Shown: positions 1 to 56,239 of the stretch, piece by piece
Position numbering within the stretch: position 1 is the first letter of the stretch
Layout of the letters: each line of letters starts with the position of its first letter
Program-made: the position numbers and the translations under genes
The notes under the pieces: generated by a model
What the model saw: the letters and a program-made list of their open reading frames with translations, nothing else
Told to the model about the DNA's origin: nothing
Database searches by the model: none
IMG/VR virus record: IMGVR_UViG_3300011334_000247
Span: 1 to 56,239 of that record
Source: a virus
Lineage: Duplodnaviria > Caudoviricetes
Length of the DNA stretch: 56,239 nucleotides
Reading direction: 5' to 3' (one strand)

Positions 1-1194
1 AACGGAGATACAAGCGGCAGTGTGACGCTATCAGCGCCAGCAACAGCGGGTTCTGTAGTGGTGACCTTGCCAGCGACAACAGGAACGATGGCGGTGTTGC
101 CAACGGCTACTGGCGTATTGGCTGAATCTGCTGGTGGTACAGGTACTACGACTGGTTACTACGGCTTCAAGAACCGCATCATCAATGGTGCGATGGTGAT
201 TGACCAAAGAAATGCGGGGGCGAGTGTTACTGCAAATAATGATGTATTTGGAGTAGATAGATTTAAAACTGTAGCTTCGCAAAGTTCTAAATTAACTGTT
301 CAACAAAATGCTGGTTCAATTACTCCACCAACAGGATTTAGCAACTATTTAGGATTTACTTCATTATCTGCATATTCTGTTCTTACTAGTGATTTTTTCT
401 TTATTGCTCACAATATTGAAGGTTTTAACTTTGCTGATATGGGTTGGGGTACTGCAAGTGCTTCAACAGTCACATTGTCATTTTGGGTTCGTTCAAGCCT
501 GACAGGAACATTTGGTGCGGCTTTAAGAAATTCTGGGAGTAGTCGTAGCTATCCTTTTAGTTACACAATTTCTGTTGCAAACACATGGGAACAAAAAACC
601 ATTACTGTTGCTGGAGATACATCAGGAACTTGGATTGGCGCAACCAATGGAATTGGTTTGCAGTTAGCCATTTCTCTTGGTATGGGTTCTACATACAATG
701 GAACTGCTAATGCATGGGCATCTGCAAATTACGCATCAGTCACAGGCGCAACATCAGTAGTTGGCACAAACGGCGCTACTTTCTACATCACAGGCGTACA
801 GCTAGAAAAAGGCTCAACAGCAACGAGCTTTGATTACAGGCCATACGGCACGGAGTTGGCTTTGTGTCAGAGGTACTTTTTTCAATATCAAGGAAATGCT
901 ACAGCAACACCAATAGGTTCTGCATATTTGGCATCAACTGTTTCTGCCCAAGGTTATTTACAGTTTCCAGTTCCAATGCGAGCCGCACCTACGCAAACTG
1001 GTTCAGCCGCTACAGATATTCAAGTTACATGGTCTGCTGGTACTTCAACTACATCAGCATTAACACTTGATTTGGTTAATACATTGACAGCTTCGTTAAG
1101 AATAACTACAACAGGATTGACAACAGGCCAAGGTGGTTATTTTTTAATTGCGGCTGGAACATCAAAATATCTTGCCTTTTCTGCGGAGTTATAA
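1..1194 (+). CDS. Tail fibre / receptor-binding protein (5'-truncated; carbohydrate-binding-like domain)
   Basis: Frame open from base 1 (NGDTSGSVTLSAP...); FKNRIINGAMVIDQRN...TLSFWVRSS...ITGVQLEKGSTATSFDYRPYGTELALCQRYF is a typical phage fibre signature; paralog/allele at 55660. Confidence 0.8.
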   Translation, partial: NGDTSGSVTLSAPATAGSVVVTLPATTGTMAVLPTATGVLAESAGGTGTTTGYYGFKNRIINGAMVIDQRNAGASVTANNDVFGVDRFKTVASQSSKLTVQQNAGSITPPTGFSNYLGFTSLSAYSVLTSDFFFIAHNIEGFNFADMGWGTASASTVTLSFWVRSSLTGTFGAALRNSGSSRSYPFSYTISVANTWEQKTITVAGDTSGTWIGATNGIGLQLAISLGMGSTYNGTANAWASANYASVTGATSVVGTNGATFYITGVQLEKGSTATSFDYRPYGTELALCQRYFFQYQGNATATPIGSAYLASTVSAQGYLQFPVPMRAAPTQTGSAATDIQVTWSAGTSTTSALTLDLVNTLTASLRITTTGLTTGQGGYFLIAAGTSKYLAFSAEL

Positions 1195-6658: not shown

Positions 6659-7801
6659 ATGGCAACAGCAGCAAATCCTTTTGACATTAACACCACCGGC
6701 GGCACGCTCACGCCCGGGACGGCCACCACTGCTGCCCAGTTTGACCCGGTCCAACGCCAGGTAGACGCGGCCAAGGAAACAACAGCTGGCCAATTACAAG
6801 GCATCATGGCTGAAGACAGCCCGCTCATGCAGCAGGCCCGTGCACAGGCCAAGCAGGGTATGGCTGCCCGTGGCTTGATCAACAGCTCTATGGCACAAGG
6901 AGCGGGCGTAGCGGCCATGCTGGAGCGTGCTACACCGATCGCGGCAGCCGACGCAGGCACCGACTTCAACCAAGCCCACACCAACCAACAGGCGGCCAAC
7001 ACCGGCGGCCAATTCAACGCTGGCCAACAAAACCAGTTTGGCTTGCAAAAAGGTGCCCAGACTTTTGCCACGGGCGAACGCACAGCCGGGCAGGAATTTG
7101 CAGCTGGCCAAGCTGGCCTGGAACGCGAACAGCAGTCCAAGCTACAAGTTGCACAGCAAAACTTTACCGGCGCTCAGTCAGCCCTGGACCGCGCACAGCA
7201 ACTCGTGCTTACCGACAAAAGCATCGAAGCTCAAAACTCTTTGCAAAAAGCACAGCAAGACTTTGCCAGTGCGCAAGCCGGTTTGGACCGTGCGCAGCAA
7301 ACCGCTTTGCAAACAGGTCAACAAACATTTACCGCTGGCCAGGCAGCCCTGGAGCGCACACAGCAAACGACCATGCTCAAGGCGCAGCAAGACTTTGCAA
7401 GCGCACAGTCTGCCCTCGATCGAGCACAGCAGGTTTCGCTTACCGATAAAAGCATTACGGCCCAAGCCAATTTGCAAAAAGCTCAGCAAGATTTCCAAGC
7501 CGCTCAAGGTGTTTTGGAGCGCGAGCAGCAAACTACTTTGCAAAACGATCAACAGGCTGCGGCCCTGGAGCAGATCGGGTTCAAGGCCAAGGTCGACCTG
7601 CAAAACATTCCAACCGCGTTTGCAGCCAACATCACCAACACCACCATGAACGGCGTCAACGCAATCATGGCCGACGGCAACATGAACGCAGATGCCAAGA
7701 AGGCAGCCGTTGCCAATTTGATTACCTACGCAAACGCGCAGGTAGACTGGGCAAATAAGTTTTATAGTGCAGCCATTCCTCCCATCAAAGCACCTGCATG
7801 A
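6659..7801 (+). CDS. Putative internal virion/ejection protein with ~22-aa Gln/Ala repeats
   Basis: Repeated QQxFxxAQxxLxRxQQ units; position before GNAT and giant proteins. Confidence 0.6.
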   Translation: MATAANPFDINTTGGTLTPGTATTAAQFDPVQRQVDAAKETTAGQLQGIMAEDSPLMQQARAQAKQGMAARGLINSSMAQGAGVAAMLERATPIAAADAGTDFNQAHTNQQAANTGGQFNAGQQNQFGLQKGAQTFATGERTAGQEFAAGQAGLEREQQSKLQVAQQNFTGAQSALDRAQQLVLTDKSIEAQNSLQKAQQDFASAQAGLDRAQQTALQTGQQTFTAGQAALERTQQTTMLKAQQDFASAQSALDRAQQVSLTDKSITAQANLQKAQQDFQAAQGVLEREQQTTLQNDQQAAALEQIGFKAKVDLQNIPTAFAANITNTTMNGVNAIMADGNMNADAKKAAVANLITYANAQVDWANKFYSAAIPPIKAPA

Positions 7802-23731: not shown

Positions 23732-23946
23732 CGGGTCACCTCTCTGAGTTTCTCCATGTAGTGCCAAGCCTTGCCAGCGTCGTCGCTGTCCTTGCGCCCC
23801 TGCCGCATGGCGTACTTAATGATGTTGCCCTTGAGAAAACCTCGAAACTCTTCCGGTGTCAACACTGCTTCCATCACGGTCCACGGCTGCACGGCCATGT
23901 CCTTGTAGTGGCTGCCACCAACTTGTGTGTCGTCTGCATTCATCAA
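23728..23946 (-). CDS. DUF3310 / SaV-like protein
   Basis: QVGGSHYK...QPW...GFLKGNIIKY..R.G.K...KAWHY. Confidence 0.8.
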   Translation of the reverse strand: MMNADDTQVGGSHYKDMAVQPWTVMEAVLTPEEFRGFLKGNIIKYAMRQGRKDSDDAGKAWHYMEKLREVTR

Positions 23947-25964
23947 TCAATCTCCTTCATGTAATAGGGTGTTGCAAATCCATCGGCACGCAAGGGTAAG
24001 CCTGGTGCCCAACTCAGTGACTGGCCCATGACTGCTTCGGCCTTGGCCAAGTCGTCCGTGCCCCTCGACTCGATGATGATCTCATCGTGAACAGTGAACA
24101 GCTGGTCATGCCCAGCTTCATCAAGGGCCAGCATCGACTCACGCAAACAGTCGCGTGCAATCGCCTGTGTGATGTTCTCCACCAGCTTGCCCCCGTACGT
24201 TGCAAGCCTGGTCCACTGCTTGGTCTTCTGGTCCTGGCCTTCGTATGTCAACGACCCAGCACTGGCCACCACGTACTTGCCGCCGGTCTTGCTGTTCTCC
24301 CTCACCAGGTCCTCGTTCTCAATACGTGGTTTCACGTAGAACAGCTTGCGACCGCTTGGCAATTGAATAGTGAGAAACCCTGACTCGTATCTGAAAAACA
24401 ACTTCGACTTATGGTTGGCGATCTCCAGTGCAACCGCCGTCTTGTTGGTCACCGCCTGCTTGGCTGCACGCTCGACCGAGTACCACAGCTTCACGATCTC
24501 AGGGTTGGCTTCGCGCCATGCCACCTTGATGGGATCGAGCTCTTCCTCTGTCAGGCCCATGGCCAAAGCGCCCATGGTGGTCAGAGCACCGACGCCGCCC
24601 TGGTAGCCAAGCGCCAGCTCAGCAACCTTGCCTCGCTGCCTGTATGGTGACTTCTTGTCGACGCTGCCAGCGGGCAGCTTGAACATCTGCTCAGCCGACG
24701 CCTCGTAGATTTTGCCGTGGGTCTTGAACACTTCCAACCGCCACTCGCACCAGGCCAGCCAAGCGATCACGCGGGCCTCGATGGCGCTGAAGTCGATGGA
24801 TAGTAGGGTAGCCCCAGGGCCTGCAATAAAGGCCGTCCTGATGAGCTGTGACAGCGTGTCAGGCACCGTTCCAAACATCATTGCAAGTGTGTCGAACTCG
24901 CGCATCTTGACCAGGTCGCGTGCCAGGTTCAAGTCTCTGAGTTTGTTCTGTGGCAGGTTCTGAACCTGCACGATACGACCGGCCCATCGGCCCGTGCGAT
25001 TGGCACCATAGAACTGGGTGAGTCCTCGCACGCGGCTGTCTGCGCACACGGCCCGCTTCATGGCGCTGAACTTGGACACGCTGGTCTTGGCCAGCTCTTG
25101 CCTCAACATCAGCACCTGGTGCACGGTCTCGTTGTCTGTGTTGGCCAACAACGTGGGCACAGTCTTCTTGGTCAAGTCCGCGATGGTGTCATCGTCCTCA
25201 GCTTCTTGCAGCCACTTGAGTAGTTGATTGCGGCTGTTCGGATTGTCCAGGCCGGTGAGCCTGACCGCCTGGTTGGTCAGTCGTTCTTTGAATAACTCGG
25301 AACACTCGATGGCCGCGTCGACCAGGTCAGTGTCAAGCATCACGCCTCTTGACATCATGCGGTGATCGAGATGCCACAAGCGCCATTCAATATCAGGCAC
25401 TGGGAACTTGGCCAGCTTGGTTGCAATCTCGTATTCAGACTCAACGTCTCGTGCGCAGTAGTCTTTGAACAGCTGCCACTTGGCTGGGTCATGGTGCGAT
25501 CGGTTGCGTGTGCGGCCACCGTTTGTTTTGGTTGGTTTGCATGGGATGCAGAAGTACCTGATCAAGCCCCAGCCTACGGCCATCTTCTGCTTGTCCGGGT
25601 CAATGCCTACGACCTTGCCAACGTCAGCCAGGTTACCCGGCATGCCAAGGTAGAGGGCGTGCACGCTTGTGCATCTCCACTGCTCAGGCTTGATGAGGTG
25701 CGGGCCAAAGTGGGACCCGATACAAGCCATCTCAAACGCTGCGTTGTACGCGGTCTTGATAACGGTCGGGTCGGTGAGTGCGTCCATGATGTGGTCGGGT
25801 AACTCTTCGCCGTTGGCCAAGTCGTACACAGCCACCTGGCCGTCACCGTATTTGAAACCGAACAACATGATCTCGAAGTCGTCGCTCTCAACGTACTTGT
25901 GCACGCCACACTTCTTCAGGTCGACGCTGCTGTACGTCTCCAGGTCAATACGAAGCGTGATCAT
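23943..25964 (-). CDS. DNA polymerase, family A, with 3'-5' exonuclease
   Basis: IDLETYS, AYNAAFE, YCARDV exo motifs; RTGRWAG, DFSAIEARV, RQRGKVAELALGYQGG, TVHDEII. Confidence 0.95.
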   Translation of the reverse strand: MITLRIDLETYSSVDLKKCGVHKYVESDDFEIMLFGFKYGDGQVAVYDLANGEELPDHIMDALTDPTVIKTAYNAAFEMACIGSHFGPHLIKPEQWRCTSVHALYLGMPGNLADVGKVVGIDPDKQKMAVGWGLIRYFCIPCKPTKTNGGRTRNRSHHDPAKWQLFKDYCARDVESEYEIATKLAKFPVPDIEWRLWHLDHRMMSRGVMLDTDLVDAAIECSELFKERLTNQAVRLTGLDNPNSRNQLLKWLQEAEDDDTIADLTKKTVPTLLANTDNETVHQVLMLRQELAKTSVSKFSAMKRAVCADSRVRGLTQFYGANRTGRWAGRIVQVQNLPQNKLRDLNLARDLVKMREFDTLAMMFGTVPDTLSQLIRTAFIAGPGATLLSIDFSAIEARVIAWLAWCEWRLEVFKTHGKIYEASAEQMFKLPAGSVDKKSPYRQRGKVAELALGYQGGVGALTTMGALAMGLTEEELDPIKVAWREANPEIVKLWYSVERAAKQAVTNKTAVALEIANHKSKLFFRYESGFLTIQLPSGRKLFYVKPRIENEDLVRENSKTGGKYVVASAGSLTYEGQDQKTKQWTRLATYGGKLVENITQAIARDCLRESMLALDEAGHDQLFTVHDEIIIESRGTDDLAKAEAVMGQSLSWAPGLPLRADGFATPYYMKEID

Positions 25965-26215
25965 TCCGCTGGCCTGGTGTCGATAAACACCGGCGTGAGG
26001 TCACCCATCCATGCGCCTATCGTGTTGAACTCGAAGAACTCTTCTGCCTCTTCGCGTGTCATCTCGCGTGCCAGTATGTCGATCACTATGGTGCGGTCAT
26101 AGGCAACGACCGGGTCCATACCAAACCTGTGCGCTACACCGATGATGGCTTCATCGAATATGTTTGGTTCTAAAAAGATTGCACTCTCTATCTCGTCAAT
26201 GATGCGTCCTCGCAT
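25961..26215 (-). CDS. Conserved phage hypothetical protein
   Basis: AGGAG RBS before MRGRII; FDEAIIG...VAYD...EEAEEFFEFNTIGAWMGDLTPVF. Confidence 0.7.
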   Translation of the reverse strand: MRGRIIDEIESAIFLEPNIFDEAIIGVAHRFGMDPVVAYDRTIVIDILAREMTREEAEEFFEFNTIGAWMGDLTPVFIDTRPAE

Positions 26216-26236
26216 AGCTGTTCTCCTGGTTAACTG

Positions 26237-26515
26237 TTTGATGAAGGGCCGGTTACTTTGCGCACCTAGAGAATGCAAGGAGCAAGCACGGCATGCAGGG
26301 AGCTCCAGCCCCTCATCAAAAAGTCCCCGTCTTTCCAGGGTGTCATGTCGGCTACTCGCTGCACTGATTACTGTGCGCTTCACTTCAGAGTCACTCAGCA
26401 TCCGCTTTGGCTAACACGGCTGGGGACTGTGGGTCCAACGAGCAAGAAGCCCCAATTGGCTACCTGTGGCTGGCAATCCCCATGCGTGTTAGGCCCCGTC
26501 TTTCCGGGGTGTCAT
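26237..26515 (-). ncRNA. Candidate structured ncRNA cluster (three long stems with variable loops; two TGACACCCYGGAAAGACGGGG elements)
   Basis: Stems 26237-52/26305-20 and 26411-29/26474-92; 22-nt repeats at 26325-46 and 26494-515; G-U pairs favour the - strand. Confidence 0.55.
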
Positions 26516-26550
26516 CGCAAGCGGGTCATAACTCCGCAACGAGGCGAATC

Positions 26551-27090
26551 TTATTTTAAGAAGTCATCAACTTCATCGCTGAAGTCATCCTCTGCGCGGC
26601 TGCGGCCAGACAGTGGTTCACCGTCTGCCAGCTTCTGCACATTGTTCAAACCACATGCGATGCCCTTGTTTCCATCCACGCTGTACGCGTAGAAGTTAAT
26701 CGACACGCGACCATAGCAACCGCTGTAAACCTCATCAGCATCCATGATCTCGACTTTGTCAATGTCGATCACGCCAGGGCGTTGGTTGCTGTTGCAGTTA
26801 ATGAAGTAGTGGCCCTTGTACTCTGGGCTCTTTTCTACATCACGGTCGGTGTCACCATCGCGCAAAGGCAACTTGAAACTGGCAAGGAATTTACCACCCC
26901 AGGTTGATGTGCTCTTCGCGTCAGTCTTGACAGCATCGACCGCGCCTTTGATCTTGTCGATCGTGGCTTTGTCGGACTTTGGAATCAAGATTGCCAAGCT
27001 GTATTTGTCTTTGTCATTCTTCTTGAAGATGTTGACGTAAGACAAACGCACCTTGCCGGTGACGATCTTTGTTGTTTGCTGTGTAGCCAT
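26551..27090 (-). CDS. DUF2815 family ssDNA-binding protein
   Basis: VRLSYVNIF, PLRDGD, VYSGCYGRVSINFYAY..GNKGIACGLNNVQK, acidic C-tail. Confidence 0.9.
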   Translation of the reverse strand: MATQQTTKIVTGKVRLSYVNIFKKNDKDKYSLAILIPKSDKATIDKIKGAVDAVKTDAKSTSTWGGKFLASFKLPLRDGDTDRDVEKSPEYKGHYFINCNSNQRPGVIDIDKVEIMDADEVYSGCYGRVSINFYAYSVDGNKGIACGLNNVQKLADGEPLSGRSRAEDDFSDEVDDFLK

Positions 27091-27115
27091 TTGAGTGTTT
27101 TCCTTGTTCACTGGT

Positions 27116-28285
27116 TTACGAGAAATCTTCTACTGCGGATGCAGCAGAAGCGAGTGCCGGTCTTTTGTCAGAGACTTGGACCAGCGTTGGTTTGCCTTCG
27201 GGCTTGACGATTAAACCATCAAGCACTTCGGCGAACACCTTCTTACCGACCGCCTTCTCCATGGCAGTGATGCCCAAGAGACTGCGTTCGTATATTACTT
27301 CTTCAGGTATGCCAGCCTCTACCAACTTGGCAGCAACTACATCCTGGTCTGAATACTTCCTGTTGGATCGACCTTCAACTAACTTGAAACCGGGCACGAT
27401 TGTGTTGTGCTCGGTTGCCTGTTTGAATGCGTATGCTTTCAAGTCGTTGAACCAATCGATCACCATGTCTGCTTTGGGTAGCAGCTCTGCAATGCGATCC
27501 ATTGAAAGGCTTGCCGGCAATGGTGGCTGCGCATCTTCAATCGGACCAAACTCCTGCTGCGCAACTGCGATCGCTTGCGCTGCTCTTGCCGGGCATGTGA
27601 ACCTGGCCTTGCAAAACGAGCTGGTGCAGTGGTCACCTGCAACGAACTTGCCCTTACCTTGCCAGGCTAAGTCTGCAAGAGGCTTGACTTCGTATGTTGC
27701 CCAATCAAGCAAGTCATCGATGTGTAGTTCCTCGCTTCCAAAGTTGTGGAGCCTTGGTTGCAACACAGTCATGCGTACGCGGAAGATGTCATAGAGATGG
27801 CACAGCTCATTGAACGCGCCAAGCCCATACAAACGCAACTGGCTGTTGTGTTTTGGTTCAACGTAGATTCCTTTGCCGTACTTCAGGTCCATCACCTCAA
27901 CGATGCCGTCGGCCACGATCACCAGGTCACCGGTGCCGAAGCCTTCGGGTACCCACAAGCTGAAGTCAAGTCGACGTTCGACCATGATGACTGGGTCCTT
28001 GCAATCGAGTTTGATTTCCTCGATGCGCCGGATCGCATAGTTGACTGACTCTTGCACATAGTCGCGCAGCTCTTGGCTGTCGAAGTGCATGAGCTCTTTG
28101 GGTAGTGGATCGACTGGTCGACCCAGGTAGGTCAGCATCTCTTGCTCAAACACCGCATGGGCAAACGTGCCTTCGCGTGCGAACTCGCTACCCTCATCGG
28201 GGAACTGCGCTTCCAGGTTTGCACTGGGTGTGCACGTCATCCACTTCTCGCTACCGGATGCTGATAGCTTTGCGTGTGCTGTCAT
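27116..28285 (-). CDS. DUF2800 family PD-(D/E)xK (Cas4-like) exonuclease
   Basis: HAKLSAS..W..C, EGTFAH, FGTGD, DLKYGKG, QLRLYGLG, C..FC. Confidence 0.9.
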   Translation of the reverse strand: MTAHAKLSASGSEKWMTCTPSANLEAQFPDEGSEFAREGTFAHAVFEQEMLTYLGRPVDPLPKELMHFDSQELRDYVQESVNYAIRRIEEIKLDCKDPVIMVERRLDFSLWVPEGFGTGDLVIVADGIVEVMDLKYGKGIYVEPKHNSQLRLYGLGAFNELCHLYDIFRVRMTVLQPRLHNFGSEELHIDDLLDWATYEVKPLADLAWQGKGKFVAGDHCTSSFCKARFTCPARAAQAIAVAQQEFGPIEDAQPPLPASLSMDRIAELLPKADMVIDWFNDLKAYAFKQATEHNTIVPGFKLVEGRSNRKYSDQDVVAAKLVEAGIPEEVIYERSLLGITAMEKAVGKKVFAEVLDGLIVKPEGKPTLVQVSDKRPALASAASAVEDFS

Positions 28286-28464
28286 ACTTCCCTCGCTTTC
28301 AACATTGCATCTGCCACTGAATAAGCCCATTCAGCAACCTTATCAGGGTTGCCATCGTGATATGTATATGGGTTTGCCAAAGCCTTTGCCGCAAAATAAT
28401 CGCGCAGACTCATGCCACGTATGTTGGTGTAATGAGCATTTGGAAATGCCTCTGGATTTTTCAT
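28282..28464 (-). CDS. Conserved small phage protein
   Basis: GMSLRDYFAAKA...AYSVADAMLKAR family motif. Confidence 0.75.
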   Translation of the reverse strand: MKNPEAFPNAHYTNIRGMSLRDYFAAKALANPYTYHDGNPDKVAEWAYSVADAMLKAREV

Positions 28465-38714: not shown

Positions 38715-38736
38715 GATTCATTTCCTTTACAAAAAA

Positions 38737-38792
38737 ACCAAGCAGTTGCGGTCGCCTGGATACACCGCCAATACCCGGCACGCCGGGCATTG
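38737..38792 (-). ncRNA. Structured cis RNA element, class I copy 1
   Basis: 33-nt core ACCAAGCAGTYRCGGTCGCCTGGATACACCGCC (+ strand) plus hairpin with GCGTGC loop. Confidence 0.6.
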
Positions 38793-38798
38793 CAAGGG

Positions 38799-39101
38799 CT
38801 ATGCGCCCTCCATTTCAAATAACCAGTCACCACCCATGGCAGCTTCGACGAAGCTGATGCTGCCCTTGGTGCCTTCTTTCACGTCGTCCCTTGAAGGGAT
38901 CACGTTGCCGTAGTAGTCACGGGCAGCAGCTGGTCCGAGCAAGCAACGGCCAGAGCTGATGGCGTCCATCATCACCCGGCCATAGCTGCCTTGCAGCGAC
39001 CAGGCACCGGAGTTGATGGCGCGTTGCACGGCCAGGTAAAAGTCGAGTTCGGTGACTTCGTCATCCGACTCGATCGCGGCGATGTCGTTAAGTGTCAGCA
39101 T
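38799..39101 (-). CDS. Hypothetical protein
   Basis: AINSGAWSLQGSYGR motif; 100 aa. Confidence 0.7.
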   Translation of the reverse strand: MLTLNDIAAIESDDEVTELDFYLAVQRAINSGAWSLQGSYGRVMMDAISSGRCLLGPAAARDYYGNVIPSRDDVKEGTKGSISFVEAAMGGDWLFEMEGA

Positions 39102-40471: not shown

Positions 40472-40488
40472 GTCTATCTCCTGAAAGT

Positions 40489-40545
40489 ACCAAGCAGTTA
40501 CGGTCGCCTGGATACACCGCCAATGCCGAGCACGCCGGGCATTGG
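40489..40545 (-). ncRNA. Structured cis RNA element, class I copy 2
   Basis: Same 33-nt core plus hairpin. Confidence 0.6.
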
Positions 40546-40565
40546 AAGGGCCGAAGCCCTGGGGG

Positions 40566-40889: not shown

Positions 40890-40904
40890 GCTGATCTCCA
40901 AAGT

Positions 40905-40961
40905 ACCAAGCAGTCACGGTCGCCTGGATACACCGCCGGAAGGCAGCACGCTGCCCTCTGG
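40905..40961 (-). ncRNA. Structured cis RNA element, class I copy 3
   Basis: Same core; hairpin stem sequence replaced but pairing and loop kept. Confidence 0.6.
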
Positions 40962-41105
40962 TCCATCCTTCGCACTCGTCAGTCTGGGGGACTGGTTCTT
41001 AGCGGTCTGGCCTTTAGGTTCCCTGGTCGGTACTGCGTAATCGGCTGGTTCCCTTTTTGTATCCCCCTGGTCCTTCGGGGCTCAGTCGTTTCTGACTAGG
41101 ACTCC

Positions 41106-41820: not shown

Positions 41821-41978
41821 TGCCTAGCAAGTCCGCTGCCCAGGCCAGGATGATGGCCGCAGCCGCTCACAACCCCGCCTTCGCTAAGAAGGTGGGTGTT
41901 CCTGTGTCTGTGGCTGAGGACTACAACAAGGCTGACAAGGGCACGGGCATCATTCGCAAAGCGATGAAGAAAAAATGA
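41820..41978 (+). CDS. Small basic protein, 52 aa
   Basis: Read manually: MPSKSAAQARMMAAAAHNPAFAKKVGVPVSVAEDYNKADKGTGIIRKAMKKK. Confidence 0.75.
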   Translation: MPSKSAAQARMMAAAAHNPAFAKKVGVPVSVAEDYNKADKGTGIIRKAMKKK

Positions 41979-42145
41979 AGCCCGGTCTCTACGCCAACAT
42001 TCACGCCAAGCAAGAGCGAATCGCTGCTGGCAGCGGTGAGCACATGCGCAAACCAGGCACCAAAGGTGCGCCGACCGCAGAGGCTTTCCGCGAATCAGCG
42101 AAGACTGCAAAGCCTGGCATCATTCGCAAGGCGATGAAGAAATGA
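41975..42145 (+). CDS. Small basic protein, 56 aa
   Basis: Read manually: MKPGLYANIHAKQERIAAGSGEHMRKPGTKGAPTAEAFRESAKTAKPGIIRKAMKK. Confidence 0.75.
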   Translation: MKPGLYANIHAKQERIAAGSGEHMRKPGTKGAPTAEAFRESAKTAKPGIIRKAMKK

Positions 42146-42453
42146 AAACACCAGCGTGGCAACGATCCGAGGGGAAGAACCCCGAGGGTGGACTCAATGC
42201 GAAGGGTCGCGCAAGCGCCAAGGCTGAGGGCATGAACCTCAAAGCTCCGGTGAAGTCCGGCGACAATCCACGTCGCGCGAGCTTCCTGGCCAGGATGGGC
42301 AACATGCCTGGTCCTGAACGCAAGAACGGCGAGCCGACCCGGCTGTTGTTGAGCTTGCAGGCTTGGGGCGCATCAAGCAAAGCAGACGCGAAGGCCAAGG
42401 CCAAAGCGATCAGCGCACGCAACGGCATCATTCGCAAAGCGATGAAGGATTGA
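42142..42453 (+). CDS. Small basic protein (DUF6321-like)
   Basis: PAWQRSEGKNPEGGLNAKGRAS...RRASFLARM. Confidence 0.75.
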   Translation: MKTPAWQRSEGKNPEGGLNAKGRASAKAEGMNLKAPVKSGDNPRRASFLARMGNMPGPERKNGEPTRLLLSLQAWGASSKADAKAKAKAISARNGIIRKAMKD

Positions 42454-53929: not shown

Positions 53930-55650
53930 GCAATAACTTTTATACACATGGGTCTTTCCCATCCACGGGTTCGCAGGCCACGTCCGCGTCCATGCGGTCT
54001 GAGTTGGACCTGATCACGGCTGGCTTTGACAAGATGCCGACGCTGACAGCAAACGCAAACAAGTTTGTCGTCATCAACAGCGGGGCTACGGCGTTGACTG
54101 CTACCAGCACGCTTCCCACGGCCACTGTGACGGACACCGGGTTTACTGTTCAAAATACTACTGACAACACCAAGACATTCCAGTTCTTGGCCAGCGGTAT
54201 CACTGCGGGCAACTTGCGCATCTACACGATGCCTGATGCGGATACCACCTTGGTGGGTACTGGCGTTACCCAGACCCTGACCAACAAGACTCTGACGTCT
54301 CCCGTCATTGCAACGATCGTCAACACCGGCACGCTGACTCTGCCCACATCGACCGACACTCTGGTTGGCCGGGCGACCACAGACACGTTGACCAACAAGA
54401 CTTTGACTGCGCCAGTCATTGCTACCATTGTCAACACCGGCACGCTGACTTTGCCCACATCGACCGATACCCTGGTTGGCCGCGCGACTACTGACACGTT
54501 GACCAATAAGACATTGACGTTGCCGGTCATTGCCTCGATCGTTAACACTGGCACGCTGACTCTGCCGACATCGACAGACACCTTGGTTGGCCGCGCAACT
54601 ACTGACACTTTGACCAACAAGACTTTGACCTTGCCGGTCCTTGCCTCAATTGTCAACACTGGCACTTTGACTTTTCCCCCCTCGACCGATACCCTGGTTG
54701 GCCGTGCAACTACTGACACCTTGACCAACAAGACTTTGACCAGTCCGGCCATCAATACCGGCACGATAAGTGGTGGCACGATTAACAACGCGGTGATTGG
54801 CGGAACAACGGCTGCTGCCGGTACGTTTACAGCATTAACAGACTCAGGCAACCTGACATTCACAGGTACAGGCAACCGCATCCTTGGTGACACCAATAAC
54901 GCAACAATTTCAAACAGATTGTTTTTTCAAGCTAGTACAACAAATGGAAGTACATCGTTTGGTGTTTTGCCAAATGGAACTTCTCTTGTAAGTGGGTATC
55001 AGGCATATAACAATTCTGACCCAACAAATGCCGCTTTTGCTCAACTGGCAACAAGTGCAGGAACAGAAGTTCGTTTGACTTCAGGGATTACAGGAACTGG
55101 CACATACCTGCCAATGACCTTCTACACTGGCGGCTCAAATCGTTTGCAGATCAGCACTTCTGGAAAGGTAAGCATTGGCGGGGCTACCAACGCAACGGTT
55201 ACTTTAGAGGTGGTCGGCACTGACGCCATCTTGCTTCCCAAAGGTACAACAGCAGAACAGCCTACAGGTGTTGCTGGCTATTTGCGGTTCAACACGACCA
55301 CTACCCAGTTTGAAGGCTACAACGGCACAGCCTGGTCCTCAGTTGGTGGAGCTGCGATCAGCAACGACACCAGCACATCGACCAACATCTACCCGGTCCT
55401 CGCGGGCGCGACAAGCGGCACAGCGTTAACAGTCTATACGTCCAACGCCAAGCTGTTGTACAAGCCAAGCACAGGCGAGTTCACATCATCGGTTTTAACT
55501 GCCGGCAATGGTATTGTGGTCAACAGCCAAACCGTTGCGACAAGCTACACGATTGCAGCAGGGTACTCAGGAATGTCGGCAGGACCTGTGACTGTGGCAT
55601 CGGGTCAATCGGTAACTATCTCCAGCGGCTCACGCTGGGTTGTTCAATAA
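53926..55650 (+). CDS. Main tail fibre protein
   Basis: N-terminal anchor, TLTNKTLT repeats, LRFNTTTTQFEGYNGTAW, C-terminal SAGPVTVASG.SVT..SGSRWVV. Confidence 0.8.
   Translation: MSNNFYTHGSFPSTGSQATSASMRSELDLITAGFDKMPTLTANANKFVVINSGATALTATSTLPTATVTDTGFTVQNTTDNTKTFQFLASGITAGNLRIYTMPDADTTLVGTGVTQTLTNKTLTSPVIATIVNTGTLTLPTSTDTLVGRATTDTLTNKTLTAPVIATIVNTGTLTLPTSTDTLVGRATTDTLTNKTLTLPVIASIVNTGTLTLPTSTDTLVGRATTDTLTNKTLTLPVLASIVNTGTLTFPPSTDTLVGRATTDTLTNKTLTSPAINTGTISGGTINNAVIGGTTAAAGTFTALTDSGNLTFTGTGNRILGDTNNATISNRLFFQASTTNGSTSFGVLPNGTSLVSGYQAYNNSDPTNAAFAQLATSAGTEVRLTSGITGTGTYLPMTFYTGGSNRLQISTSGKVSIGGATNATVTLEVVGTDAILLPKGTTAEQPTGVAGYLRFNTTTTQFEGYNGTAWSSVGGAAISNDTSTSTNIYPVLAGATSGTALTVYTSNAKLLYKPSTGEFTSSVLTAGNGIVVNSQTVATSYTIAAGYSGMSAGPVTVASGQSVTISSGSRWVVQ
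54274..54747 (+). repeat. 111-bp (37-aa) tandem repeat, four full units plus a partial fifth
   Basis: ACCAAYAAGAC at 54280, 54391, 54502, 54613, 54724. Confidence 0.9.
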
Positions 55651-55659
55651 GGAAGAGAT

Positions 55660-56239
55660 ATGTCAAGCATAGTTGTAAACGGAGATACAAGCGGCAGTGT
55701 GACGTTATCAGCGCCAGCGACAGCGGGTTCTGTAGTTGTGACCTTGCCATCGACAACAGGAACGATGCTTACCACAGCGTCTACCACGGGCATCAGCGGT
55801 AGCGCAATATCTTCTGGTACTGTTCCAGAGGCTTATGGTGGTACAGGAACAAGCACTGGCTATTACGGCTTCAAGAACCGCATCATCAATGGTGCAATGG
55901 TGATTGACCAGAGGAATGCGGGGGCGAGTGTTACGCCTACATCAAGTGGTCAATTTACTATTGACAGATGGCAAGCTGGATTAAGCGTATCTTCAAAATT
56001 TAGCGTTCAACAATCATCAACCGCACCTAGTGGTTTTGTTAAAAGCATTCTTGTTACATCTTTATCTGCTTACACTGTTGGCGCAACTGAATCATTTGCA
56101 ATTCTTCAACCAATTGAAGGATTAAATATGACTGATGTTGGTTTTGGTTCGGCTGGTGCATCAGCGCTAACTTTGTCGTTTTGGGTTCGCAGTTCTTTGA
56201 CAGGAACATTTGGCGGTGTTCTTACCAATTATGCAAACG
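55660..56239 (+). CDS. Tail fibre/RBP, 3'-truncated; diverged copy of gene at 1-1194
   Basis: Read manually: MSSIVVNGDTSGSVTLSAPATAGSVVVTLP...GFKNRIINGAMVIDQRNAGASVT...TLSFWVRSSLTGTFG. Confidence 0.8.
   Translation, partial: MSSIVVNGDTSGSVTLSAPATAGSVVVTLPSTTGTMLTTASTTGISGSAISSGTVPEAYGGTGTSTGYYGFKNRIINGAMVIDQRNAGASVTPTSSGQFTIDRWQAGLSVSSKFSVQQSSTAPSGFVKSILVTSLSAYTVGATESFAILQPIEGLNMTDVGFGSAGASALTLSFWVRSSLTGTFGGVLTNYAN

What the first reader, a model, noticed from the sequence alone, without database searches (positions are those of the whole stretch)
26237..26515. Cluster of stem-scaffolded small RNAs with variable loops, one antisense to an RBS+start codon
The 335-nt gap between SSB and the next gene reads on the - strand as follows: repeat ATGACACCCCGGAAAGACGGGG; stem A CTAACACGCATGGGGATTG-[44 nt]-CAGTCCCCAGCCGTGTTAG; element B GCCAAAGCGGATGCTGA-[~27 nt]-TCAGTGCAGCGAGTAGCC; repeat ATGACACCCTGGAAAGACGGGG; and a 16-bp stem C TTTGATGAGGGGCTGG-[52 nt]-CCGGCCCTTCATCAAA. 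G-U pairs support the - strand. Loop C is the reverse complement of GCAAGGAGCAAGCACGGCATGCAGG, i.e. AAGGAG-10 nt-ATG, for which I found no full match among this phage's gene starts. The layout suggests a processed array of antisense/guide-like sRNAs aimed at host or competitor mRNAs.
Basis: partly seen in the sequence, partly recalled or inferred. Interest (0 to 1): 0.78.

Follow-up and report, generated by a model that had tools for sequence, protein, structure and literature searches.

The report
Widespread phage RNA hairpin heading hairpin RNAs
The gap between two phage replication genes holds two copies of a short RNA hairpin that recurs almost letter for letter in hundreds of unrelated phages, usually just ahead of tRNAs or long hairpin RNAs, and that matches no described RNA family; what it does is still unknown.

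Summary
The sequence features are real and at the stated coordinates. Stem-loops A and C fold far better than shuffles. Element B does not.

The key feature is the "repeat". It is a motif made of GACA, a 5-bp stem, a GANAGA loop and a G-poor tail. The exact 22-mer occurs in 76 IMG/VR stretches and the 21-mer in 48 genome-collection stretches from very different phyla. Cultured Xanthomonas, Stenotrophomonas and Bacteroides phages carry it too.

The stem covaries while the loop and GACA stay fixed. The motif lies on the transcribed strand, once or a few times per genome. It sits 4-8 nt upstream of tRNAs or tRNA-like RNAs, twice directly before a hammerhead core, and in about 40% of cases next to a long hairpin with a replaceable interior. 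Rfam 15 has no family for it.

I found no targets for loops A, B or C in the phage itself, and none that recur in 401 Burkholderiales genomes. The guide/antisense reading is therefore unsupported, apart from a conserved anti-Shine-Dalgarno-like apical loop in C.

Best reading (about 0.4): an RNA-level recognition and boundary hairpin in a co-transcribed, processed non-coding island, with copy 2 also terminator-like. The partner and function are inferred, not shown.

The parts
26521..26537 (-). Short family-specific hairpin just after the upstream gene and 5 nt before motif copy 1
   Evidence: Seen in the window and in relatives before the motif, with changed but still complementary arms. Not tested formally.
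26494..26515 (-). Motif copy 1: A-UGACA, stem CCCCG/CGGGG, loop GAAAGA
   Evidence: E 4.9e-8. The exact 22-mer is in 76 IMG/VR stretches. Stem covariation.
26411..26492 (-). Stem-loop A: long hairpin with base CUAACA.../...UGUUAG, a 2x2 internal loop and a 44-nt interior. A 'P2'-type cargo hairpin.
   Evidence: Fold z -4.56, 0 of 200 shuffles. The same arms with replaced interiors occur in L005, L019, L036 (twice), L038 and L059. It is absent in relatives seen in RNA-library contigs that join 26408 to 26547.
26347..26411 (-). Element B with its linker: a reduced form of a module (here called M) found after P2 hairpins in related arrays
   Evidence: Letters present. Its own fold is no better than shuffles. 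Resemblance to the GCUGAU...AUCAGC module of the L015/L033-type arrays comes from inspection only.
26325..26346 (-). Motif copy 2 (stem CCCUG/CGGGG with one G-U pair), followed by ACUUUUUG; terminator-like
   Evidence: E 1.5e-7. Listed as terminator-like by the scan. Relative L019 keeps the pair through a change on both sides.
26237..26320 (-). Stem-loop C: 16-bp stem with a 52-nt interior
   Evidence: Fold z -4.95, 0 of 200 shuffles. There are 11 consensus pairs in 12 relatives, 2 of them with compensatory changes, and the interior ranges from 4 to 70 nt.
26274..26284 (-). Apical hairpin of C, UGC-UCCUU-GCA, showing an anti-Shine-Dalgarno-like loop
   Evidence: MFE and centroid structure. By my own reading of its letters, not by the predicted fold, L036 can form AUGC-UCCCCU-GCAU at the same place despite a different interior.
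26213..26227 (-). AGGAG, 7 nt, then ATG: ribosome site and start of the 84-aa ORF (25961-26215)
   Evidence: The start and RBS are conserved in relatives. The ORF has no Pfam family.
26551..27111 (-). Upstream gene: gp2.5-like ssDNA-binding protein
   Evidence: Pfam PF10991, E 1.7e-66.
23943..25964 (-). Downstream gene: family A DNA polymerase
   Evidence: Pfam PF00476, E 1e-17.

Best explanation
The gap is a co-transcribed, non-coding RNA island made of exchangeable modules. Its one deeply conserved part is a hairpin of about 27 nt: N-GACA, a 5-bp stem, a GANAGA loop and a G-poor 5-6-nt tail. I read it as working in RNA, as a sequence-specific recognition hairpin that marks unit boundaries. 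It stands directly before elements that are cut out of transcripts: tRNAs and tRNA-like RNAs (RNase P), hammerheads (self-cleavage) and long hairpins (RNase III-type substrates). It probably governs 3'-end formation, processing or stability at that boundary. In this window, copy 1 heads hairpin A. Copy 2 plus its U-run is a likely partial terminator between the abundant ssDNA-binding protein gene and the polymerase operon, and it heads hairpin C. Hairpin C carries an anti-Shine-Dalgarno-like apex near the next gene's ribosome site. Shown: the motif, its structure, its strand, its spread and its neighbours. Inferred: that a protein or RNase recognises it, which one, and the effect.
For: Conservation: the exact 22-mer is in 76 IMG/VR stretches. 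The 21-mer is in 48 stretches of a collection with one genome per 185,579 species, from Burkholderiales, cyanobacteria, Bacteroidales, Clostridia, Patescibacteria and others. Cultured Xanthomonas, Stenotrophomonas and Bacteroides phages carry it. Structure: with the three inner stem positions left free, 29 of 40 distinct versions pair fully (chance about 5%), and 56 of 75 instances in loci found only by that pattern pair fully. Covariation score is 0.707 against 0.153 in shuffles (rows were pre-filtered for at least 4 of 5 pairs). With the loop left free, 76 of 87 instances are GANAGA. With the 5' flank left free, 34 of 38 loci not found by the TGACA patterns are within one letter of TGACA. 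RNA strand: G-U 13 against A-C 3. There are 35 same-strand and 0 opposite-strand tRNAs within 300 nt. Pfam-supported neighbour genes are mostly co-oriented: 26/26, 22/22, 21/21, 14/14 and 11/11. Boundary position: 20 of 297 unique instances have a tRNA starting within 20 nt downstream, 15 of them at 5-6 nt (Rfam confirms). Two of 306 have a hammerhead core directly after, against 0 in control windows (Hammerhead_1 at 19.9 bits, below the cut-off). Of 215 non-redundant instances, 87 have a perfect stem of at least 9 bp starting within 6 nt, 32 have a U-tract (8 in the control) and 40 have an SD plus start codon within 40 nt (21 in the control). The tail is A/G, then Y, Y, W, W with 7-13% G, and nothing upstream is conserved. 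Copy 2 is called terminator-like. RNA-library contigs of relatives run from the ssDNA-binding gene into the island (DNA carry-over is not excluded).
Against: No cleavage, termination or binding has been shown. A boundary or terminator role does not by itself explain why the loop letters and GACA stay fixed across phyla. Only 15% of instances have a U-tract, and copy 1 has none. No protein partner recurs nearby: the largest neighbour family covers 21 loci among roughly 300 instances. The control for the downstream-stem count used a shorter span than the test.
Confidence: 0.4

Rival explanations
1. The hairpin is a self-contained trans-acting RNA: a decoy or sponge for a very conserved host RNA-binding factor. 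The adjacent tRNA, hammerhead or long hairpin frees it from the transcript.
For: Letters are identical across phage groups whose flanks differ strongly in base content, as the printed contexts show. It is rare in the cellular genome collection: 48 stretches in a collection of one genome per 185,579 species. It is absent from 5,426 E. coli genomes. It does not depend on context: it follows a cro-like gene, tail genes and replication genes. Some phages have several copies close together (3 in the 700-nt gap of BUCT708; tandem copies in L228 and L234). A processing module sits a fixed short distance downstream. The loop plus closing pair equals E. coli 23S rRNA 2055-2063, CGGAAAGAC, the only such 9-mer in the rrn operon.
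Against: No partner is known. Most genomes checked have a single copy (5 of 5 large records). The rRNA likeness may be chance: the motif model does not hit the rrn operon, and loop position 3 varies (A, G, C or U). A 27-nt RNA is very small for a stable product.
Confidence: 0.2
2. It is a nut/put-like processive antitermination signal in early operons. It lets RNA polymerase read through terminators and untranslated RNA genes.
For: In Stenotrophomonas phage BUCT708 it lies 145 nt downstream of the cro-like gene of a divergent CI/Cro pair. CI-like S24 repressors lie about 2 kb upstream in 18 loci. It stands before untranslated RNA genes, strong hairpins and long replication operons. From recall, its size and purine-rich loop resemble lambda boxB.
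Against: No boxA-like element is present: nothing upstream is conserved. From recall, N-type proteins and their boxB sites diverge quickly, whereas this motif is invariant across phyla. It also occurs after tail genes (FoX2) and inside tRNA clusters. No N-like protein was identified.
Confidence: 0.12
3. One reading: A, B and C are processed antisense or guide-like sRNAs whose loops pair with host or competitor mRNAs, as in C4-type or anti-Shine-Dalgarno sRNAs.
For: The apex of C shows UCCUU in a pentaloop, and a divergent relative may keep a similar C/U-rich loop (my reading of the letters). Related arrays (L066) end in an sRNA resembling the anti-hemB and toxic-sRNA families, with a CCUCCC loop (37.1 bits, below the 49.5 cut-off, E 8.5e-7). 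Interiors are exchangeable.
Against: No targets beyond chance in the phage. No recurrent target in 401 Burkholderiales genomes; the best four hits are unrelated places. B is not structured. Relatives have C with a 4-nt loop and no interior at all. No Rfam sRNA family hits the window. The host is unknown, so the search may have missed it.
Confidence: 0.1
4. The motif works as DNA: a single-strand hairpin used in replication priming, an origin, or recombination of cassettes.
For: It is often in replication modules, next to SSB, SNF2 helicase, family A polymerase and PD-(D/E)XK nuclease genes. It has one or a few copies per genome. Covariation alone cannot tell RNA from ssDNA.
Against: It is strictly co-oriented with tRNAs (35 against 0). 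It sits at a fixed 5-6 nt from tRNA 5' ends. G-U exceeds A-C (13 against 3). It occurs outside replication modules.
Confidence: 0.07

Closest known systems
Lambda-type nut boxB and HK022 put RNAs (recalled)
   Same: A small RNA hairpin with a purine-rich loop, in one or two copies, in early operons. In one phage it lies just downstream of a cro-like gene.
   Different: No boxA-like partner. Invariant across phyla instead of phage-specific. Also found in tRNA clusters and after tail genes. No N-like protein found.
Orphan RNA motifs found near tRNAs and self-cleaving ribozymes (RAGATH set, recalled; drum motif, passages read in PMC5737381)
   Same: Phage and metagenome-borne, conserved, next to tRNAs and hammerheads, function unknown.
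   Different: No Rfam 15 family matches. The passages read say drum has a 3' terminator and an associated protein domain. Here there is no recurrent protein and a U-tract in only 15% of instances.
T7-type RNase III processing hairpins between phage genes (recalled)
   Same: Long imperfect hairpins (A, C) between co-transcribed replication genes. A hairpin would be left at the 3' end of the upstream message.
   Different: They are preceded by a separate conserved 21-nt motif and their interiors are swapped wholesale. Cleavage is untested.
P1/P7 C4 and P4 CI antisense RNAs (recalled); anti-hemB and toxic-sRNA families (Rfam names)
   Same: Stem-scaffolded loops that pair with ribosome sites. The apex of C is anti-Shine-Dalgarno-like.
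   Different: No model hit in the window and no target found.
UG27 reverse-transcriptase ncRNA arrays of phages (bioRxiv 10.64898/2026.09.22.753630, passages read)
   Same: Phage arrays of hairpin units that share only short motifs and gain or lose units.
   Different: No reverse transcriptase in this complete phage record or in a 95%-complete carrier. The conserved motifs differ.
Aca1/Aca2-bound 5'-UTR hairpins of anti-CRISPR operons (PMC13551039, abstract and passages read)
   Same: A short conserved hairpin in a phage 5' UTR about 20 nt before a start codon, with covarying stem pairs, bound by a protein.
   Different: Those co-vary with a co-encoded regulator and with the host family. This one has no co-encoded partner and is the same across phyla.

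Membership tests
Any Rfam 15 family | Covariance-model match at or near the gathering score | tested here: not met
   0 matches at gathering score over the whole window. At E up to 10 over 25900-26700 there are only 3 weak unrelated hits of 19 bits or less.
tRNA / tmRNA | ARAGORN or Rfam detection in the gap | tested here: not met
   0 tRNA or tmRNA genes in the window.
Intrinsic terminator | G+C-rich hairpin followed at once by a U-run | tested here: inconclusive
   Copy 2 qualifies and copy 1 does not. Across relatives, 32 of 215 qualify against 8 of 215 at a control position.
Lambda-type nut site | Conserved boxA-like single-stranded element beside the hairpin | tested here: not met
   Information content upstream is 0.12 bit or less per position in 226 non-redundant contexts. 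Only GACA and a G-poor 3' tail are conserved.
Lambda-type nut site | Position in an early operon downstream of cro or a promoter | tested here: inconclusive
   True for BUCT708, and 18 loci have a CI-like repressor upstream. Untrue for FoX2, where it follows tail gene D.
Lambda-type nut site | Cognate N-like antiterminator protein | not tested
   No search for arginine-rich small proteins was made.
C4-type / anti-SD antisense sRNA | Loop complementarity to a target ribosome site | tested here: not met
   Own genome at chance level. 401 Burkholderiales genomes give no recurrent target. The host is unknown.
C4-type / anti-SD antisense sRNA | Discrete processed RNA species | not testable with these tools
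   Only contigs of RNA libraries were available.
Retron / UG27 / DGR-type template RNA | Reverse transcriptase encoded in the same element | tested here: not met
   No PF00078 match in the 100%-complete window record or in the 95%-complete carrier G410.
CRISPR / TIGR arrays | Many regularly spaced repeats with short spacers and an effector gene | tested here: not met
   There are two copies 169 nt apart with structured 'spacers'. Effector genes were not searched for.
Self-cleaving ribozyme (hammerhead etc.) | Catalytic core in the window | tested here: not met
   No Rfam ribozyme hit in the gap. Hammerhead cores follow the motif only in L060 and L125.
RNase III processing site | About two turns of imperfect helix between co-transcribed genes | tested here: met
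   Predicted helices of A and C. Actual cleavage is not testable here.
Protein-coding sequence | Frame kept among relatives | tested here: not met
   Unit lengths of 114, 113, 114, 128 and 112 nt, and interiors from 4 to 70 nt.

The most novel reading that the evidence does not exclude
The GACA-stem-GANAGA hairpin is a phage-specific RNA ligand for a universally conserved cellular factor (polymerase, ribosome-assembly or RNA-processing machinery), possibly mimicking a conserved rRNA strand. Phages of many phyla carry it as a portable module that redirects that factor, and tRNAs, hammerheads or long hairpins are placed beside it to release or position it.
Probability: 0.2. Interest if true: 0.85.

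Novelty: new member of a known kind. Interest (0 to 1): 0.62.

Why it matters
A motif of about 21 nt that keeps its loop and flank letters while its stem covaries, in phages of hosts from Proteobacteria to Clostridia, Bacteroidales, cyanobacteria and candidate phyla, points to an interaction with something shared by all these hosts. I found no Rfam family for it. I also found no paper, in five searches: the hairpin letters, the loop letters with 'hexaloop', and three word searches. It is easy to test because cultured phages carry it. It also gives a marker for non-coding RNA islands in phage genomes, where tRNAs, tmRNA, hammerheads and unknown hairpin RNAs sit together. For this window it turns an odd intergenic region into a defined set of modules.

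Tried and rejected
- **Known RNA families.** Rfam on the window, on FoX2 and on 17 related loci found no family for the motif.
- **Loop targets.** None in the phage's own genome or in 401 Burkholderiales genomes. These sets include the unpublished genomes G303, G035, G214 and G388, and only this negative statement rests partly on them.
- **Pairing partners.** No complement of the loop in E. coli 16S, 23S or 5S rRNA. GTCTTTCC occurs in the window at chance level apart from the motif itself.
- **rRNA mimicry.** The 9-mer identity to 23S 2055-2063 is real. The motif model does not hit the rrn operon and loop position 3 varies, so I keep this only as a lead.
- **Promoter reading.** No sigma-70-like site in 25800-27300. 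The -10 position after TGACA is not conserved.
- **Reverse transcriptase link (UG27, retron).** None found. TIGR-Tas does not fit the passages I read.
- **Recurrent partner protein.** None within 3 kb.
- **Strand analysis from raw ORFs.** Too noisy in G+C-rich DNA: 84 of 299 motifs fell 'inside' spurious ORFs. I dropped it and used homology-supported clusters instead.
- **Other collections.** E. coli genomes gave no match. Plasmids gave only weak short matches.
- **RNA-library contigs of relatives.** Parts of the gap without cover say nothing, depth was not used, and DNA carry-over cannot be excluded.
- **Tools and files not used.** One paper search failed on syntax. I did not ask for supplementary files; those of PMC5737381 (motif lists) could hold a related motif that I could not see.
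- **Jobs not run.** No structure or complex prediction, because no protein partner is proposed.

Full report
**The observation**

The window is a complete 56-kb virus record. Genes around the finding lie on the minus strand:
- a DUF2800 nuclease-like gene (27116-28330);
- a gp2.5-like ssDNA-binding gene (26551-27111, Pfam Enc34_ssDNA-bd);
- a 335-nt gap;
- an 84-aa ORF with no family (ATG 26215);
- a family A DNA polymerase (23943-25964).

The 22-nt repeat occurs twice in the window and in none of 100 shuffles.

The gap folds better than shuffles (z -3.68). Taken alone, stem-loop A (z -4.56) and stem-loop C (z -4.95) are each better than all 200 shuffles. Element B is not (z +0.82, 161 of 200 shuffles as good). 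Rfam 15 finds nothing at gathering score in the whole window and only three weak unrelated hits at E up to 10 in the gap. ARAGORN finds no tRNA.

**The repeat is the conserved core**

A BLAST of the gap against named phages hit only the repeat, in Xanthomonas phages FoX2 and FoX5. There it lies in a non-coding stretch with tRNAs, followed by a long hairpin just as in the window.

The exact 22-mer is in 76 IMG/VR stretches. The 21-mer is in 48 stretches of a collection holding one genome per 185,579 species. The record titles range over Burkholderiales, Chromobacterium, cyanobacteria, Bacteroidales, Clostridia, Treponema, Saccharibacteria, Patescibacteria and one Pacearchaeota bin. Their flanks have very different base composition.

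Short-query BLAST adds Stenotrophomonas phages BUCT708/709, Bacteroides phage BS-TP2 and three uncultured phage records. No match was found in 5,426 E. coli genomes.

**Which positions matter**

Three viral scans each freed one part of the motif. I counted only loci first found by the relevant scan:
- Loop free: GANAGA in 76 of 87 instances (GAAAGA 63, GAGAGA 10, GACAGA 2, GATAGA 1).
- 5' flank free: within one letter of TGACA in 34 of 38 loci that the TGACA patterns had not found.
- Stem free: fully paired in 56 of 75 instances.

Of 40 distinct stem versions, 29 pair at all three free positions, where chance gives about 5%.

On a 72-row alignment the helix shows four pairs with changes on both sides and a covariation score of 0.707 against 0.153 in shuffles. 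Those rows had been pre-filtered for at least 4 of 5 pairs, so the 98% paired figure is inflated.

In 226 non-redundant contexts nothing upstream is conserved. The five to six bases after the hairpin are A/G, Y, Y, W, W with only 7-13% G. A covariance model from the alignment finds exactly the two window copies, three copies in the BUCT708 gap, and none in the E. coli rrn operon.

**RNA or DNA**

Three lines of evidence point to the transcribed strand:
- Stems hold 13 G-U against 3 A-C pairs.
- Same-strand tRNAs lie within 300 nt on either side in 35 and 21 instances, and opposite-strand tRNAs in none.
- Neighbour gene families confirmed by Pfam are nearly always co-oriented.

A raw-ORF strand count was too noisy to use.

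**What stands beside it**

Of 297 unique instances, 20 have a tRNA starting within 20 nt downstream, 15 of them at exactly 5 or 6 nt. Rfam confirms tRNAs 3-8 nt after the motif in seven genome loci. BS-TP2 has an unannotated tRNA-like element 4 nt after it.

Two of 306 instances are followed at once by a hammerhead core, against none in control windows. The L060 hammerhead scores 19.9 bits, below the cut-off. One locus has a permuted tmRNA (79.5 bits) just after the unit.

Among 215 non-redundant instances:
- 87 are followed within 6 nt by a perfect stem of 9 bp or more (27 at a control position, which used a shorter span);
- 32 are followed by a U-tract (8 in the control);
- 40 are followed by a ribosome site and start codon within 40 nt (21 in the control);
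- 73 are followed by none of these.

Five of five large phage records hold one copy.

Neighbour genes are mostly early or replication functions: family A polymerase (21 loci), gp2.5-like protein (17), DUF2800 (16), CI-like repressor (18), SNF2 helicase (13), SSB (12), PD-(D/E)XK nuclease and DUF1376. None is general. In BUCT708 the motif lies 145 nt after the cro-like gene. In FoX2 it follows tail gene D. One Kapaibacterium contig carries the motif inside a CRISPR spacer.

**The window's own family**

In 12 relatives, motif copy 1 always follows the upstream ORF and a small hairpin. What follows it differs:
- stem C directly;
- stem A, then B, then a second motif, then stem C, as in the window;
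- nothing at all before the polymerase start.

L036 has two stem-A units. Stem C has 11 consensus pairs, two of them with compensatory changes. Its interior runs from a 4-nt loop to 70 nt. Unit lengths are not multiples of three, so the region does not code.

RNA-library contigs from two studies join the ssDNA-binding gene's 3' end straight to element B, skipping motif 1 and stem A. This shows module loss in relatives. It also shows presence in RNA libraries, though DNA carry-over is possible.

In other Burkholderiales-type phages the same parts form tandem arrays of about 300 nt: motif, long hairpin, a module with complementary loops GCUGAU/AUCAGC, and a linker. One such array ends in an sRNA like the anti-hemB family, with a CCUCCC loop.

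**The guide/antisense idea**

Loops B and C have no complementarity in the phage beyond shuffles. Loop A has one 13-nt match equalled by 2 of 60 shuffles. In 401 Burkholderiales genomes only short matches at chance frequency were seen, and the four best lie in unrelated places on both strands.

What survives is the apex of C. It is a UGC-UCCUU-GCA hairpin whose loop is complementary to a Shine-Dalgarno sequence. By my reading of its letters, not by the predicted fold, relative L036 can form a similar C/U-rich loop in an otherwise different interior. It could act on the AGGAG 50 nt downstream or in trans. This is inference.

**Mechanism**

I favour an RNA-level recognition and boundary hairpin (0.4). 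It is transcribed. It sits as close as possible to units that are cut from transcripts. It has an unstructured G-poor tail, and in 15% of cases, including copy 2 here, it looks like a terminator. Hairpins A and C have the form of RNase III-type sites.

This reading does not explain the invariant loop. I therefore keep three rivals:
- a trans-acting decoy for a conserved host factor (0.2);
- a nut/put-like antiterminator (0.12);
- a DNA-level hairpin (0.07).

The 9-mer identity of the loop with 23S rRNA 2055-2063 is noted but may be chance.

**Comparison with the literature**

I read passages on several phage RNA systems: UG27 arrays (bioRxiv 10.64898/2026.09.22.753630), TIGR arrays (PMC12045711), Aca-bound hairpins (PMC13551039; abstract too) and the drum and ROOL motifs (PMC5737381). 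For theta ribozymes (PMC10879173) I read the abstract and outline only. None describes this motif. Five searches found no paper on it. Names such as boxB, put, C4 and RAGATH are recalled, apart from the Rfam family names that calls returned.

Noticed in passing
window 38732-38799, 40484-40551, 40900-40967; also 41941-42447: Three copies of a 68-nt repeat (90% and 69% identical to the first) and a second 29-nt repeat family lie in and around a stretch (about 39.86-42.12 kb) with no ORF of 100 aa or more. This may be another non-coding or regulatory region.
   Followed up: no
window 1-230 and 55678-55934; 54156-54821: The two ends of the record share 90-99-nt stretches at 91-96% identity. Near the right end there are five 111-nt-spaced tandem repeats. 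These may be repeated tail-fibre-like modules or terminal redundancy.
   Followed up: no
L111 165-185: In a Kapaibacterium contig the motif lies inside a spacer between CRISPR-like direct repeats, so a host has acquired immunity against this conserved phage sequence.
   Followed up: no
L048 1217-1453: A viral contig encodes a permuted tmRNA (Rfam RF04321, 79.5 bits) right after a motif plus long-hairpin unit.
   Followed up: no
L060 1615-1662 (-) and L125 about 6727-6780: Type I hammerhead cores start a few bases after the motif. L060 scores 19.9 bits, below the Rfam cut-off.
   Followed up: partly
L066 11068-11141 (-); the same letters in L004: An sRNA resembling the anti-hemB, Atu_C7 and toxic-sRNA families, with a CCUCCC loop and a terminator, closes a motif array (37.1 bits, cut-off 49.5).
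   Followed up: partly
L033 (reverse strand) about 1255-2105; L015, L069 and relatives: About 850 nt of tandem units of roughly 300 nt: motif, long hairpin, a module with two hairpins whose loops GCUGAU and AUCAGC are complementary, then a linker. The 3' end of the module repeats the 5' base of the long hairpin, which hints at alternative pairings. No Rfam family matches.
   Followed up: partly
L336 (Bacteroides phage BS-TP2) about 1525-1640: A tRNA-like element with an acceptor stem and T arm, not annotated in the record, starts 4 nt after the motif.
   Followed up: no
L335 (E. coli rrlH) 23S positions 2055-2063: The motif's loop plus closing pair, CGGAAAGAC, equals the only such 9-mer in the rrn operon. 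From recall, this is in the peptidyl-transferase and macrolide-site strand. TGACAC also occurs at 2086.
   Followed up: partly
L035 929-950 (-), 618-kb viral record: Here the motif lies between a nine-tRNA array and a gene whose product begins like elongation factor Tu.
   Followed up: no
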